Assembly: GCA_037379345.1 (NCBI GenBank)
Contig: CM074512.1
Coordinates: 45,508,001-45,572,000, forward strand
Length of the DNA stretch: 64,000 nt
From: Perna viridis
Taxonomy: Eukaryota
Reading direction: 5' to 3'
A program made the position numbers. Positions 12,001 to 21,000 of the stretch are shown piece by piece (position 1 is the first letter of the stretch; the number at the start of each line of letters is the position of its first letter).

Positions 12001-15000
12001 AGGAAATTCCATTCACCTTTGGGTTATAAACATAATTTTTATTTTAGGCAAAAGATATCTCATTGGATAATGTTTGGTAGATATTTTGGCCTTTAGGATC
12101 TTCCTATTGTGAGAGCCTGTTTAGAAAACGTGAAATCTTACCTTTTTGGGTTCTAAAAAAACTTTCCTATCTTGCACTGTCAGCAGTATTAGATTCTTAA
12201 TTTTTCTTCCTTTTCAGGAATATGACTCGCCGTGTACCCCTGTGGTATGGGAAAGAACAGCCGTTGTTTGAACCAGTTGATGATAACCATCCCAGACTGC
12301 AGGTTCAGAGAATACCTGGAGGGTAAAGTATTTTCAACTTTTAGAAAATTTTGCATTTAAACTTTTAGACTCCTGTTGAAAGTAGAAATTTGTTTGTGGC
12401 AAAATAAATCATCTTTACCAAATGCTAAAAATATTATTCCAGAATCAAATGGATTCTGTTTGCAATTCATAACCTCATTTTGATTCTTTTGTGCAATACT
12501 AAATTATGCCTCATGCAACAAAGTTGCGAAGGGTATAATGTTTCTGACCCGTCCGTCCATCGGTCCAGCTTCAGGTTTCCGGACTTTTTTCTAAACGCTT
12601 GCAGATATTTACATGATATTGGTATATAAGTTCACCATGATAAGTTACAGGTCAAGTTTAACTTCTGTTCAGCTCCAATGATTTTTACTGAAATTACGGG
12701 CCTTGAACTTAGCAAAATTCACAGAAATAAGTTTTCCAGACTTTTTTTCTAAATGTTTGCAGATATTGACATAGTTTTTAGTATTTAAATTCACCATGAT
12801 AAGTTACAGGACAAGTTTGTAGTTGGTTCTGCTAGGATGATTTTTACTAAATTTACAGGGCCTTGAACTTAGCTAAATTCACAGAAATAACCATTTTTCA
12901 GACTTTTTTTTTCTAAACGCTTGCAGATTATGACATGATTTTTGGTATATAAGTTCACCATGATAAGTTACAGGTGAAGTGTAGTGTTCCACTACAATGA
13001 TTTTTACTTTGTATTAACTAAAACTCAAAGAAATCACAGTCTGGAGTTTGAAAGTACCATTCTGAGTAACAGAATTTAGTTAGAAGTTAGTGTCTTATAT
13101 ATTACAAAAAAGTACAACAGTCCGTTAGTTTCCTATATTTTTTCCACCATGTTTCCTAGGTTATGATCATCAGATGAACTTCAATAAACATTTTAAAATT
13201 CATGAATTGCACCCAATCAATACTAAATATAAAATGGTTTTGTAGAAGTCATGTAACACCATGCTTGAAAGTTCTGTCAAAGACCTTTGGCACTTTGGAG
13301 AAAGTACATTTAGAATATCTCAGACTTAGTCTTCCAGTACAGTGCAAGGAAGAATTTCTACATAGGTTTGTATTTAGTATGAAAGACATGTGAAAACATG
13401 CTATTGAGACAATAATCAAATAATGGCACCCAGCCAAACCTTGCATATATAAAGGCTCAATCAATATTTTAATGAAAGGGCAAAGTTTATGCATTGGCAT
13501 TACCAAGAAAAGAAAGTTTCTATAAGTGCAAATGGTTACCATGAATTCAGATTTCATGACTTTAAGAGATGGCGTAATATATGATTTCTTAAACAAAAAT
13601 TTTGCCATCTTATGTGTCTGCCCGCTTAGTGCTGAGCGGAACAACAGTGTTGTCTTGTTTTCTGTAGGGATAGATCAACAGCCTATCCATCAGCTTTTGA
13701 AAGAAGGATGAATTTAGAGAATATAAGAAGACATGAAATGGACATTGAGGAGGAAACACAAACACCTGATTCATTGCCAGAGAATTACAGTGAGGCCATG
13801 AGTGAAGGCTCCATTGTGGGCAGCAAAATGACCACAGGTAAGAGGCTACAGAAACGGTTTGATGTTAGATATACTTGAAAGGCTTACATCATGTAGCAAA
13901 CTACTTGTAAATAAAGGCTAAAGTTAAAGACTGCAGATATTGTAAGGGAAGTTTTACCTGAAAAAAAATGACTCTGGATAACTTTCTTTATTATAAAATA
14001 TAATGGTTTACTACAAGTTAGATAGCTTTTGAAGTAGAAATATTACATTATTTTTTTCATTAATCTTAGAAATTAGAGAACAGTCCATGCTTGACTAGTT
14101 TGAACACTGGAATTTACATAAAATTTTGAGTAATATAATATTTCATTATTTACAATTTATCTCTTAGATTTTGACAAAGTAGTTTATTTTAATCAGTTGT
14201 GTTTTTAGTCCTCTAGTTTTGTTTTGAGTAGTTAGTATACCATGTTTGCCTGCTAATAAGCTGTAAAAGCCATTGTCATGTATTCATATTGAGTTTTCTT
14301 TTGTTAATTGAAATGATTAAAAAGGAATTGGAAAAGAAACACTTAAAGCTGGATACAAGAAAATATTGATCCTGAAATTGTGGAACAAATTTAGTAATAA
14401 AGCACTAGTTTTTGTTCACATACATTGTAAAGTAAAATCACATTGGATTGTGACCACTCACTAATCACCTAGGTTATCAGTATATTCAAAATGATAATAG
14501 GGAAAGGAACTTATATGATGAAATGCAACAAATGCACCAATGTATTACCTAAATACACAATAGTCAATACTTTCAGAGATCCTCGAGAGGTGTTAAAAAG
14601 GTATAAACACACCTTTAAGAAAGCTCTGAAAGGCCCCAACAATCCACAGTAAAGGAACAATATCATTTCTTCAAAGTAAACTGTAAAAGGCAACCTTTCA
14701 ATTTGTGTGTGTGGTTATCATTTATTTATTGGTGTGTATCAAATTTTGTCCGTTGGTCTATATGATTATGGGCAGTACACATAAGTTCTTTTTAGATTTG
14801 CTTACTGATGGTTCTTGTCTAACCCAATGATTATTGAAAGCCCAATTAAATTGAACATTTTAGAACAATACAATGTAATGAATTGGAAAAAAATGCAAAA
14901 AATTGTTTGGTACTTGATGGTTTAGTAATTGCTGTTTTATTTTAATTGACCATGCGAGCAAGCACACCACTTAGGCATAGTATACATTGACCAGTAGAAA

Positions 15001-18000: not shown

Positions 18001-21000
18001 AGTCTAGTGGTAATGGGGTCTATGTAACTGTCTAGTGGTAATGGGGTGTATGTAACAGTCTAGTGGTAATGGGGTTTATGTAACTGTCTAGTGGTAATGG
18101 GGTCTATGTAACAGTCTAGTGGTAATGGGGTCTATGTAACTGTCTAGTGGTAATGGGGTGTATGTAATAGTCTAGTGGTAATGGGGTGTATGTAACAGTC
18201 TAGTGGTAATGGGGTGTATGTAACAGTCTAGTAGTAATGGGGTGTATGTAACTGTCTATTTCTATTACACAGTTTTTTTATACTTAAATGTATGTAATGA
18301 ATTCATCTAAAATTTAGGACTCATGAAAATACAAAACCTTAAGTTATGCCATATTACAGCAGATATTTTTTATAAGAAATAGTACTTAATGTCATGTTAA
18401 TGTCAAAGAGTAATCAAGGGAACCAAGGTTCAAAAGAATGTAATCCAGGGACTAAGACCAGACATGGAAAAGTCATGCTCCTTACATTGGGGAAGATTTT
18501 GACAAAATAAAAGTTAAATTTGAGATAAAAATATGTATGTATAACAAGTTATTATTTGAATTTGGAATTATTTTAGAATTAAGAAAATGAATGAAAAATA
18601 ATTTGTAAAACCAACCCTTACTAAGGGGGTTAGTCATGCCAGTATAGCTATGGGATAAGGATAGTTGAATAACAGAAGTTAAGGAAAACTTACTAACACC
18701 CTTAGCCGTGATGGCAAAACTAATCCCCTTAGTCATGATGGCAAAACTAACCCCCTTAGCCATGATGGCAAAACTAACCCCCTTAGCCATGATGGCAAAA
18801 CTAACCCCCTTAGTCATGATGGCATAACTAATCCCATTAAGTTAGTTTTTCAAATAATTTTATTACTCGTTTTCTTAATTCCAAAATAAATCCAAGTTCA
18901 AATAATACTTTATTGTATATATTTATGGTTTTGTCTGAAACTGTAGAGGGAACATTAGTGCTATGGTTATATTAGTTTTGTTGTGAGTTCTGATGTCAAA
19001 AAGTACTGAATCACCATGTTGTAAAATCTTTGAATCTAAAGCAAATTGAAGTTTGTTTGTTTGTTTTTCTTTTTGGTCCTCTAGCCATTTTTCTTCATGA
19101 AAATTAATGAAGGAAAGAATATCATTTTACCTTTTATTTGCCACAAAAAAGTGATAAATTTTTTTTTTTAATTTAATTTTGTGATTTGGTCATAAAAATG
19201 TGTTATTGAAGGCATCAACGGAAGAGACAAGGGAAGGCCTGAGAACCAGTTAATTATTTTAGTTGGCCTTATTGGATTGGTAATTGTTAAAATTTCATTG
19301 TTACTGTTAGTATGATATTGATGTATAATGTCTACAGATGATGATGAAGAAGATGGATACACCACAGATGGAATGATGAATGGCAGAGATAAATGTAAGT
19401 TTTTCTCATTTTTTGAAAAGTTTGCCATACTTTCCAATGCAGAAAACCCTTGCTAAATATCAAATGCCAAATTTTAATCACAGCAATATCAGTTCAGAAA
19501 TTGTACATAGTTTGGGTTTGCTGAAGCAATGAGAGTGGTAATATATCTATCTAAGCTTTGTTTCTTGGAATTTAGAAATTTAATGATTTTATTTTAGTGT
19601 AAAAAAGATTTATTTATGTACTAGATTACCAAAATAATTCATTCAAAATAATTCCTTTCAGCATTAGAAAGGAGCTACCGAGAAGGGTCAATGACAGCTG
19701 ATGATAGACGTAAAAAATTCTTACGCCCACATGGTCAAGGTCACTCCTTGGATGACAGTTCACAAGATGATCGGCCAGTCGGAGGAATGAAAGCTGCTGC
19801 AAGTGAATCACAGTTGTCTGCAGATAAACAGAGTTCCTCCCGTCTTTCTTTACTAGGAGACAAACTTATGGACACTGCAAAGGCTATCCAGGAAAAGGGC
19901 ACTAAAAGGAGCAAAAACACATTTACTAATATTTTCAAAAAGAAAGGCAGAGACCTTTCTCCAGTAGAATCTAAAAGGACAAGAAGTGTAGAATATGGCA
20001 GCCTTGATAGAAAACAGGGCTCATCATTTAGACGTCATAAAGATAAACATCGTGAATATGAAACAAGTAAGACCCATACACTGCCAACCTCAAGTACTAT
20101 GGACTCAGTAGAAAGTGATGGAGCACAACCTTCACAGGGGCCTGTCATCAACATTGAGGCTCCTAGAGGAATGATTCCATATGAGTTTCAGGATGCCATG
20201 GGTAGAGGCAAAAATGTCAGATCAGACTTTGGTGGTAGTGAAGGATCAGAGCACTCTGATAGTGACTTCGCTGAACTGGCTGCCATGGCTGATATGATTG
20301 ATGAGTATCAGTATTCAATAAGGATATTCCCAGGACAGGACCCTGCCCAAGTATTTGTTGGATGGGTTACACCAGGGTTCCATTTTAATGAGAAACAGTT
20401 TGAAACCAAGAAAATCAGACATGTAGTGGTTACAGTTCTGGATGATGACTACAACTTGAAACAAAGGTAGGTTATCTCTGGACAGTAGCAACTGCTATAA
20501 AAACAATTAAGTAATGATTTTAAATAGAAATACATTTACGATGGTATATCACCAATTGAAGGCTTAATCTGTGCAACATCTTGTAGAAGAATGTTATGTT
20601 GCTAAAAAAGAATAACTTATCTGATAGTGAGTAAAGGTTTAGAGCTTACTTTACACCCTGTATTATTAGTCATTGAAACTTTTTGTTTTATTCAAGTCAA
20701 TTAATTTGACCTAAATCTGACATCAATAATATTTTTTCAGTCTTAGCAGGAAAAACTGCTACATGGTATCTGCAGGTGACCTGCTTCAACGCTATGGCAG
20801 TTCTTTACAGGAAGTGACATCAAAGAGGTCAACTCCAGGCCTTGTGATTGGTTGTTGTATTGACATTTCCACAGGCATGCTCAGCTTCAGTGTAAATGGA
20901 AAAGAGGTTGCTAACAAGTTTTCTGTAGAACCCAACACAAAGTTGTTTCCAGCAGTCATCTGTGAACCAACAGTCAAAGAAATGTTTCAGTTTGAACTGG

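What the first reader, a model, noticed from the sequence alone, without database searches (positions are those of the whole stretch)
13668..19661. Combinatorial cassette-exon module in RyR divergent region 2
Seen: between exons w21 (phase-1 donor) and w22 (phase-1 acceptor) lie at least three symmetric phase 1-1, stop-free exons with good splice sites: 15103-15144 (42 nt, DTGRDFYIVTTNY), 16208-16333 (126 nt, S/T/P-rich, two GCATG motifs just upstream of its acceptor) and 19338-19394 (57 nt, acidic). Any subset keeps the frame (8 isoforms, or 16 with the weaker 14473-14541 candidate). None is in the ORF track. Established: DR2 differs between vertebrate RyR1/2/3 and is implicated in excitation-contraction coupling. 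Inference: an invertebrate RyR gene may generate tissue-specific (e.g. catch/striated muscle versus neuron) DR2 variants by splicing instead of paralogy.
Basis: partly seen in the sequence, partly recalled or inferred. Interest (0 to 1): 0.7.

Follow-up and report, generated by a model that had tools for sequence, protein, structure and literature searches.

The report
Small extra exons in RyR linker
Two of the proposed mini-exons in the variable linker of this invertebrate calcium-release channel gene look real and could be skipped without breaking the reading frame, but whether they are actually optional is untested, and the same idea is already shown in a nematode.

Summary
The window holds most of an invertebrate ryanodine receptor (RyR) gene on the + strand.

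Being bounded by AG and GT, divisible by three and stop-free is not remarkable: 168 such segments lie in this 5.8-kb intron.

- **c2 (16208-16333) and c3 (19338-19394):** controls built inside the window single these two out. They are the two best coding-like segments of the intron. Their splice sites fall within the range of real sites, and c3 has the best donor of 454 GT. None of 52 equally bounded decoys reaches their coding score.
- **c1 (15103-15144):** it cannot be told apart from the decoys.
- **c0 (14473-14541):** both sites score below every real site, and c0 gives TAA when joined to c1 or c2.

No transcript evidence could be reached, so optional or combinatorial use is untested. Indirect pointers favour optional use:
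- both exons are divisible by three, against 3 of 24 other exons;
- c2 has weak splice sites and a GCATG pair over its branch-point zone;
- in 10 insect RyRs the w21 and w22 homologues abut.

The concept is already published for C. elegans unc-68 DR2. This would be a new member of a known kind.

The parts
13247..13365 (+). Exon before w21 (end of the SPRY2 side, ...LRLSLPVQCKEEFLH), with a phase-2 donor
   Evidence: Aligns to Helicoverpa RyR 1272-1309 by tblastn. Aligns to RyR3 1266-1302, RyR2 1280-1314 and RyR1 1267-1301. The donor after 13365 scores 6.1 and is in phase 2, which matches the w21 acceptor.
13668..13837 (+). Exon w21, 170 nt, with a phase-1 donor (CAG|gtaaga)
   Evidence: Acceptor scores 7.6 and donor 11.0. 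Codon score is 0.41 per codon, which is exon-like. There is a weak but colinear match to insect RyR 1318-1357.
15103..15144 (+). c1, a 42-nt candidate; doubtful, probably a pseudo-exon
   Evidence: Donor scores 8.8 (rank 2 of 454 GT) but the acceptor only 2.6. GC is 0.33. Codon score is 0.09 per codon, inside the decoy range. 69% of GC-matched non-coding windows score as high or higher.
16177..16192 (+). Pair of GCATG motifs 31 and 20 nt upstream of the c2 acceptor (possible Rbfox-type site over the branch-point zone)
   Evidence: Found. Only two such close + strand pairs exist in the 64 kb. The other lies 29 and 25 nt upstream of a homology-supported acceptor at 42762.
16208..16333 (+). c2, a 126-nt phase 1-1 exon rich in S, T and P; the likely regulated cassette
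   Evidence: It is the best coding-like segment of the intron (19.9 bits). As bounded it scores 16.2 bits, against a maximum of 9.9 among 52 decoys. GC is 0.45. Acceptor scores 2.9 and donor 5.8.
19338..19394 (+). c3, a 57-nt acidic phase 1-1 exon; real, inclusion level unknown
   Evidence: It has the best donor of the intron (9.3) and the fourth-best acceptor of 313 AG (7.2). It is the second-best coding-like segment. Only 0.55% of GC-matched antisense-exon windows reach its codon score.
19662..20466 (+). Exon w22, 805 nt, phase-1 acceptor: a disordered DR2-equivalent stretch followed by the start of SPRY3
   Evidence: Relatives at 85%, 83% and 58% or less share the exon start. Residues 214-265 align to RyR1 1432-1483. 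The donor after 20466 scores 12.3.

Best explanation
The 5.8-kb gap between w21 and w22 of this invertebrate RyR gene holds two real small coding exons, c2 (126 nt) and c3 (57 nt). They add 42 and 19 residues to the disordered linker between SPRY2 and SPRY3. That linker is the positional equivalent of vertebrate DR2.

Both exons are divisible by three and in phase 1-1. Each can therefore be skipped or included without a frame shift or a junction stop.

- **c2:** I infer that it is a regulated cassette. It has a weak acceptor and a weak donor. A pair of GCAUG motifs sits over its branch-point zone, and an Rbfox-type factor binding there would be expected to hinder 3' splice-site recognition and favour skipping.
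- **c3:** it has strong sites and may be included constitutively or at a high level.
- **c1:** most likely a pseudo-exon.
- **c0:** not an exon.

**Shown:** the exon-like properties and the frame compatibility.
**Inferred:** optional use, the regulator, and any tissue pattern.

My sub-estimates are 0.8 that c2 and c3 are expressed exons, and about 0.6 that at least one of them is alternatively spliced.
For: **Splice sites.** Matrices from 40 other junctions of the window rank the c3 donor 1st and the c1 donor 2nd of 454 GT. The c3 acceptor ranks 4th of 313 AG.

**Coding signal.**
- A codon log-likelihood scan puts c2 (19.9 bits) and c3 (15.2 bits) as the top two stop-free segments of the intron. 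Each is in the frame that phase 1 demands.
- As bounded exons they score 16.2 and 12.9 bits.
- The 52 decoys meet the same splice, length and stop-free criteria. They come from 22 kb of other introns and the 64-kb minus strand, each in 3 phases. Their maximum is 9.9 bits.
- A scan not restricted to symmetric exons finds only c2, c3 and one weak segment that does not fit the frame.
- In a GC-matched control, 5.2% of 349 antisense-exon windows reach the c2 score and 0.55% of 2365 reach the c3 score.

**Pointers to optional use.**
- Only 3 of 24 fully bounded exons of this gene are divisible by three, yet both c2 and c3 are.
- All junction codons are sense codons.
- The only two close GCATG pairs on the + strand of the window each lie 20-31 nt upstream of an acceptor. 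One is the c2 acceptor. The other belongs to a homology-supported 111-nt exon that is also divisible by three.
- In 10 insect RyRs the stretch matching w21 (about 1318-1357) runs straight into the LHRGYSED motif. That motif matches the start of the w22-type exon in relatives. The skip-all product therefore has the insect-like architecture, and c1-c3 have no insect counterpart.

**Precedent.**
- unc-68 has a DR2 splicing hotspot (PMC7644089).
- Predicted Helicoverpa isoforms have an optional 25-residue segment in the same divergent region.
Against: - No transcript, junction read or annotated isoform of this gene or a close relative was seen. All 30 relatives of w22 are unspliced genomic reading frames.
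- Conservation of c2 and c3 in other species could not be examined.
- Part of the codon score is plain GC content. GC-matched non-coding windows average about 0.2 per codon, and c2 is only at their top 5%.
- Unbounded coding-like islands of 16.0, 15.2 and 12.8 bits exist in other introns.
- With splice criteria alone, 3 candidates against about 1.2 expected is not significant. The thresholds were also set after seeing the candidates.
- The w21-to-insect alignment is weak (E 0.07-1.8 in a 10-protein set).
- The GCATG argument is post hoc and rests on two pairs. The motifs are AGCATG, not the TGCATG that I recall as the preferred hexamer.
- Single GCATG motifs are not enriched near splice sites: 4 against 2.4 expected upstream and 3 against 2.4 downstream.
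- The strong sites of c3 fit a constitutive exon as well.
Confidence: 0.55

Rival explanations
1. c2 and c3 are ordinary constitutive exons of the DR2-equivalent linker, missed only because they are short. w21 is never spliced directly to w22, and there is no isoform diversity here.
For: - The same exon-like evidence applies.
- c3 has strong sites at both ends.
- Nothing seen here shows skipping.
- Two exons that must jointly keep the frame are both divisible by three in 1 case of 3 under uniform odds.
Against: - Using this gene's own frequency of exons divisible by three (3 of 24), both being so is about a 4% outcome given that their sum keeps the frame.
- c2 has both sites in the lowest eighth of real sites.
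- The insect homologues of the w21 end and the w22 start abut. These exons therefore look like lineage-specific additions. From recall, young exons are usually alternative.
- DR2 splicing hotspots exist in unc-68 (PMC7644089).
Confidence: 0.28
2. c1, c2 and c3 are three independently used cassettes that give up to 8 DR2 isoforms with tissue-specific patterns.
For: - All 8 combinations keep the frame without junction stops.
- The c1 donor is the second best in the intron.
- In unc-68, three DR2 events combine.
Against: - The codon score (0.09 per codon) and GC (0.33) of c1 are intron-like. 69% of GC-matched non-coding windows score as high or higher.
- The c1 acceptor is at the 8th percentile of real sites.
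- About 1.2 decoys of this quality are expected in the intron.
- The c1 peptide is hydrophobic and aromatic, unlike the polar linker around it.
- Even in unc-68 only 6 of 16 possible combinations were detected.
Confidence: 0.1
3. None of the candidates is an exon. They are chance open segments in GC-richer patches of a repeat-laden intron.
For: - The intron holds 168 segments bounded by AG and GT, divisible by three and stop-free.
- GC-rich coding-like islands occur in other introns.
- The intron carries satellites and a repeat also seen elsewhere in the window.
- No homologue of c1-c3 was found among 291 fetched proteins beyond two weak hits.
Against: - Top coding score, top-ranked splice sites, correct phase and symmetric length coincide twice in 5.8 kb. 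None of 52 bounded decoys in about 258 kb-phases comes close.
- c1-c3 have no repeat copies elsewhere in the window.
Confidence: 0.07

Closest known systems
C. elegans unc-68 DR2 alternative-splicing hotspot (exons 10, 12, 13; Marques et al. 2020, PMC7644089)
   Same: - It is a single invertebrate RyR gene.
- Several small optional coding segments lie in the region that corresponds to vertebrate DR2.
- The proposed purpose is tissue-specific isoforms in place of paralogues.
- The region is disordered and poorly conserved.

Seen in the abstract, in passages and in sections 8 and 21.
   Different: - In unc-68 the events are proven by cDNA clones, minigene reporters and CRISPR deletions. Here nothing is shown at the RNA level.
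- unc-68 has two cassettes plus a 6-nt alternative donor. Here there are two credible cassettes.
- Sequence homology between the cassettes was not tested. The paper's exon definitions are in supplements S3 and S4, which I could not see.
- The authors argue for independent origin.
Insect RyR alternative exons and the insect divergent region between SPRY2 and SPRY3
   Same: - The 10 predicted Helicoverpa armigera isoforms that I aligned differ by an optional 25-residue segment inside the same divergent region, at position 1484 of isoform X50. It is absent in 2 of the 10.
- Insect reviews define a divergent region at 1299-1522 between SPRY2 and SPRY3 (PMC8301844, passages).
- Stage- and tissue-dependent exon use is documented (PMC3342285, passages).
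   Different: - The experimentally studied insect sites lie elsewhere. One is a mutually exclusive pair inside SPRY2. The other is an optional exon between the third and fourth RyR repeats.
- The Helicoverpa segment sits inside the stretch homologous to the interior of w22, not at the w21/w22 junction.
- No second copy of the SPRY2 exon is present in this window.
Vertebrate RyR1, RyR2 and RyR3 divergence in DR2 (RyR1 residues 1342-1403)
   Same: The position is the same, bracketed by RyR1 1301 and 1432. The region is linked to coupling with the L-type channel (passages in PMC3187800 and PMC7644089).
   Different: In vertebrates the diversity comes from gene duplication, not from cassettes. No sequence similarity to c2 or c3 was seen.
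Rbfox-regulated cassette exons (GCAUG elements)
   Same: GCAUG is the Rbfox binding element (abstract of PMC11874969 as shown in the search listing). Two copies lie 20-31 nt upstream of c2.
   Different: - The rule that upstream sites repress is recalled, not read here.
- No Rbfox gene, binding or motif conservation was examined.
- The motifs here are AGCATG rather than TGCATG.

Membership tests
Ryanodine receptor gene, DR2-equivalent linker | Flanking exons are homologous to RyR in the right order | tested here: met
   tblastn with Helicoverpa RyR covers residues 378-4138 colinearly across the window. A SPRY domain is found on 20730-21077. PDB RyR1, RyR2 and RyR3 match.
Ryanodine receptor gene, DR2-equivalent linker | The position corresponds to RyR1 1342-1403 | tested here: met
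   The exon before w21 aligns to RyR1 1267-1301. Residues 214-265 of w22 align to RyR1 1432-1483. The DR2 residue range comes from PMC3187800. This is positional bracketing only; the linker itself does not align to vertebrate DR2.
Cassette (skippable) coding exon | Splice sites are within the range of real sites of the same gene | tested here: inconclusive
   c3 meets it (60th and 70th percentile). c2 is low (8th and 12th). c1 has a low acceptor (8th) and a good donor (62nd). c0 is below all real sites.
Cassette (skippable) coding exon | Length is divisible by three, and there is no stop on inclusion or skipping | tested here: met
   Searches show this for c1, c2 and c3. It is not met for c0 when followed by c1 or c2 (TAA).
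Cassette (skippable) coding exon | Codon usage is coding-like in the required frame | tested here: met
   Met for c2 and c3. Not met for c1 and c0.
Cassette (skippable) coding exon | Transcripts exist both with and without the exon | not testable with these tools
   Only unspliced genomic reading frames were returned. No RNA data are available.
Cassette (skippable) coding exon | The exon and its flanking intron are conserved in related species | not testable with these tools
unc-68-type DR2 splicing hotspot | Several alternative events clustered in DR2, with tissue-enriched inclusion | not testable with these tools
   The location criterion is met. Alternative use and tissue pattern were not observable.
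Rbfox-regulated exon | (U)GCAUG lies close to the regulated exon | tested here: met
   Motifs at 16177 and 16188. The + strand density is 0.8 per kb. Only two close pairs exist in 64 kb, and both lie 20-31 nt upstream of acceptors.
Rbfox-regulated exon | Inclusion depends on Rbfox; the motif is conserved | not testable with these tools
   This needs a minigene or knock-down, and orthologous introns.

The most novel reading that the evidence does not exclude
A lophotrochozoan-type RyR gene has independently built a multi-exon splicing module exactly at the start of the DR2-equivalent linker. The module is switched by paired GCAUG elements placed over the branch-point zone. The same device appears at a second symmetric exon of the gene, at 42762. 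DR2 would then be a recurrent, convergent site of RyR isoform diversification across nematodes, insects and this lineage, using new lineage-specific exons each time.
Probability: 0.25. Interest if true: 0.5.

Novelty: new member of a known kind. Interest (0 to 1): 0.35.

Why it matters
If c2 and c3 are optional, this animal tunes a disordered linker of its calcium-release channel by splicing. In vertebrates that linker differs between muscle and brain paralogues and is tied to coupling with the L-type channel.

That would add a third protostome lineage to a pattern already proven in C. elegans and annotated in insects. It would also give precise, cheap targets: one RT-PCR resolves all eight combinations by size.

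It would not change how the field thinks about RyR. It mainly improves the gene model, by adding two short exons that ORF-based tracks miss.

Tried and rejected
1. **Reaching full-length RyR proteins of this lineage to read annotated isoforms.**
   - The 'longer' search with w22 covers only 469-2000 residues and found nothing.
   - The representative search returned only exon-sized unnamed reading frames, some partial proteins and one full-length insect RyR.
   - Searching with that insect protein listed mainly arthropod proteins plus one nematode among the 120 shown, and none recognisable as being from this lineage.
2. **The 'near' search with w22.** It returned 30 relatives. All are unspliced genomic frames, so they say nothing about junctions.
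3. **A match of c3 to Anabrus RyR 1434-1444** (8 of 11 identical, E 0.016-0.034). I rejected it as homology. It lies inside the stretch that corresponds to the interior of w22, not upstream of the w22 start.
4. **My recollection that lepidopteran RyR has an optional exon between SPRY2 and SPRY3.** The paper does not bear it out. Its sites are in SPRY2 and between RyR repeats 3 and 4.
5. **c0.** Rejected on splice scores and on the TAA junctions.
6. **An 84-nt variant of c1 from acceptor 15061.** Its codon score is negative.
7. **Segment 19212-19279.** It has a coding-like score, but it leaves phase 0 and would put stops into c3.
8. **Other features in the region.** There is no Rfam family in 13300-20000. 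There is no Pfam domain on four other reading frames of the region. I found no nested gene.
9. **Literature.** Searches for mollusc or bivalve RyR splicing found no relevant paper.

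
Full report
**What the window is.** The window has no N and is AT-rich, with GC about 0.27-0.37 in 2-kb windows.

A full-length insect RyR (P0110, named by its source as Helicoverpa armigera isoform X50) aligns colinearly by tblastn from residue 378 to 4138 on the + strand. A SPRY domain is found on 20730-21077. Solved mammalian RyR1, RyR2 and RyR3 match only the conserved parts.

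I do not take this contig for human. The phylum was not established: the close relatives in the protein collection carry no organism names.

**Position relative to DR2.** The exon before w21 (13247-13365) aligns to RyR1 1267-1301, RyR2 1280-1314 and RyR3 1266-1302. Residues 214-265 of w22 align to RyR1 1432-1483. DR2 of RyR1 is residues 1342-1403 (passage in PMC3187800). The stretch from w21 through the first 213 residues of w22 is therefore the positional equivalent of DR2. Insect work calls the same stretch a divergent region (1299-1522 in one beetle RyR; passage in PMC8301844).

**The observation.** All coordinates, phases and translations are as written. The details are these:
- w21 ends at 13837 with one base of a codon.
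- w22 starts at 19662 with two bases that complete a codon.
- c1, c2, c3 and c0 are bounded by AG and GT, are divisible by three, and are open in phase 1.
- Junction codons for every ordered pair among w21, c1, c2, c3 and w22 are sense codons.
- c0 followed by c1 or by c2 gives TAA, so 6 of the 8 combinations containing c0 carry a stop.
- The two GCATG motifs are at 16177 and 16188.

**Is it more than chance?** The bare criteria are not. The intron holds 168 segments of 27-300 nt that are bounded by AG and GT, divisible by three and stop-free in phase 1. There are 130 and 167 in the other two phases.

I therefore built controls from the window itself:
- From 59 adjacent pairs of homology blocks I placed 47 junctions.
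- The 40 best gave donor and acceptor matrices.
- Leave-one-out scores of real donors have median 7.8 and minimum 2.4. Real acceptors have median 6.8 and minimum 0.3.

In the intron there are 454 GT and 313 AG. The scores are as follows:

| Candidate | Acceptor | Donor | Note |
|---|---|---|---|
| c3 | 7.2 (rank 4 of 313) | 9.3 (rank 1 of 454) | both sites strong |
| c1 | 2.6 | 8.8 (rank 2) | acceptor at the 8th percentile of real sites |
| c2 | 2.9 | 5.8 (rank 9) | 8th and 12th percentile of real sites |
| c0 | -2.2 | 0.2 | below every real site |

With thresholds just below the weakest of c1-c3, other sequence gives 52 bounded, symmetric, open decoys. These come from 22,161 nt of other introns and the 64-kb minus strand, each in three phases. 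That is about 0.2 per kb and phase, so about 1.2 are expected in this intron. Three distinct candidates are seen. On splice criteria alone the finding is not significant.

**Coding signal.** A codon log-likelihood ratio was trained on 8,982 nt of homology-supported exons (GC 0.423) against 20,961 nt of introns (GC 0.292). None of the training sequence came from this intron. Per-codon scores are shown below.

| Segment | Score per codon |
|---|---|
| c2 | 0.40 |
| c3 | 0.71 |
| w21 | 0.41 |
| c1 | 0.09 |
| c0 | 0.04 |

Further results:
- A scan for maximal stop-free segments ranks c2 (19.9 bits) and c3 (15.2 bits) first and second in the intron. Each is in the frame that phase 1 needs.
- As bounded exons they score 16.2 and 12.9 bits. 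The best of the 52 decoys scores 9.9 and the next 5.9.
- A scan that allows any entry and exit phase finds only c2, c3 and a 68-nt segment (19212-19279) whose exit phase would put stops into c3.

Limits of the coding signal:
- Part of the score is GC content. On the antisense strand of real exons (GC 0.43), stop-free windows average about 0.2 per codon.
- 5.2% of 349 such windows reach the c2 value, 0.55% of 2365 reach the c3 value, and 69% of 3459 reach the c1 value.
- Other introns hold unbounded islands of 16.0, 15.2 and 12.8 bits. Their top-scoring frames do not fit the nearby splice sites.

c1-c3 have no copies elsewhere in the window.

My reading is that c2 and c3 are real exons (about 0.8). 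c1 cannot be told from a decoy (about 0.2). c0 is not an exon.

**Optional or constitutive?** No tool here reaches RNA.
- The protein collections returned the window's own w22 frame, relatives at 85% and 83% identity, and 27 more at 58% or less.
- The ends of all 30 read as unspliced genomic frames.
- None carries anything like w21, c1, c2 or c3. A short-query BLAST against 291 fetched proteins gave two weak hits, both to insect RyRs.

Indirect pointers to optional use:
- Only 3 of 24 fully bounded exons of this gene are divisible by three, yet both c2 and c3 are.
- c2 has weak sites at both ends.
- The only two pairs of + strand GCATG within 20 nt of each other in the 64 kb lie 20-31 nt upstream of acceptors. 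One is the c2 acceptor. The other belongs to a homology-supported 111-nt exon at 42762, itself divisible by three. This is post hoc and rests on two cases. Single GCATG motifs are not enriched near splice sites.
- In 10 insect RyRs the stretch that aligns to w21 runs directly into LHRGYSED. For example, the stretch is P0244 1318-1357. The match is weak (E 0.07-1.8) but colinear with the preceding exon at 1274-1311.
- LHRGYSED aligns to the first residues of the w22-type exon in relatives (LHRGYTEDD and similar; E 2.5e-4 to 0.095 in that small set). The skip-all product therefore has the insect-like architecture, and c1-c3 have no insect counterpart.
- From recall, lineage-specific exons are mostly alternative.

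Together I put about 0.6 on at least one of c2 and c3 being optional, and about 0.1 on the full three-cassette combinatorial model.

**Mechanism proposed.** Inclusion of c2 adds 42 residues rich in Ser, Thr and Pro, with several SP and TP sites. Inclusion of c3 adds 19 acidic residues. Both are inserted at the very start of the disordered linker.

GCAUG is the Rbfox element (abstract of PMC11874969 as shown in the search listing). From recall, binding upstream of an exon promotes skipping. Two copies over the branch-point zone of c2 would fit repression in cells that express such a factor. All of this is inference.

**Comparison with what is known.** Marques et al. 2020 (PMC7644089; I saw the abstract, passages and sections 8 and 21) show a DR2 splicing hotspot in C. 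elegans unc-68.
- Exons 10 and 13 are skipped or included, and exon 12 has two donors.
- Usage is tissue-enriched, and exon deletions give behavioural phenotypes.
- Only 6 of 16 possible combinations were detected.
- The authors argue for convergent use of an unconstrained region.

Their supplements S3 and S4 hold the alignments and exon definitions. I could not see them, so I could not compare exon sizes or positions.

The 10 predicted Helicoverpa isoforms that I aligned differ at seven places, counting the three variable blocks at 1135-1165 as one exon swap. One is an optional 25-residue segment in the same divergent region, absent in 2 of the 10. It lies in the part homologous to the interior of w22.

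Cloned insect RyRs have a mutually exclusive pair in SPRY2 and an optional exon between RyR repeats 3 and 4 (PMC3342285, passages). No second copy of the SPRY2 exon is seen in this window.

Three literature searches for mollusc or bivalve RyR splicing found nothing relevant.

**What was left out.** As a result, full-length annotated isoforms of this species, if they exist, could not be looked up. One fetched hit (P0114) looked vertebrate-like and was not used further.

**Verdict.**
- Two short real exons were probably found, and one of them has features of a regulated cassette.
- c1 and c0 should be dropped.
- The biological idea is already established in another invertebrate, so this would be a new member of a known kind.
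- Interest is 0.35.

Noticed in passing
window 17330-18258: A 28-bp satellite (consensus GTCTAGTGGTAATGGGGTCTATGTAACA), 33 copies at 92% match, fills about 0.9 kb of the intron between c2 and c3.
   Followed up: partly
window 18519-18940 and 33541-33618: A 27-bp array (18692-18839, 5.5 copies) is flanked by inverted repeats 18519-18654 and 18807-18940 at 75% identity, which looks like a small foldback or MITE-like element. Separately, 18405-18471 is 81% identical to 33541-33618 on the other strand, so it is a dispersed repeat.
   Followed up: partly
window 42733-42872: GCATGCATG lies 21-29 nt upstream of the acceptor at 42762. That acceptor belongs to a homology-supported 111-nt exon (divisible by three, phase 2-2; Helicoverpa residues 3121-3160). 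This exon might be another regulated cassette.
   Followed up: no
window 19904-20011 (inside w22): Two short motifs of the disordered linker are conserved. KRSKNTFTNIFKKKGRDLSP matches insect KKKRGRSPFRFFSRKRD. KRTRSVEYGSLDR is kept in several unnamed relatives, and its basic-x-x-Ser pattern looks like a kinase site.
   Followed up: partly
window 2898-3017 and 3114-3194: Two GC-richer (0.44), coding-like open segments of 16.0 and 15.2 bits lie inside a 482-nt intron. No splice sites fit them, and they do not match the insect RyR. Their nature is unknown.
   Followed up: partly
window 10953-11051: This SPRY2 exon corresponds to the insect mutually exclusive pair. It is present once only; no second copy was found in the window at tblastn sensitivity.
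   Followed up: yes
window, e.g. 23999-25128, 27231-28261, 36788-39145, 43568-46415, 51235-54752, 57913-60701: 12 of 59 adjacent homology blocks are more than 14 insect residues apart, so more short or divergent exons remain unmodelled in these gaps.
   Followed up: no
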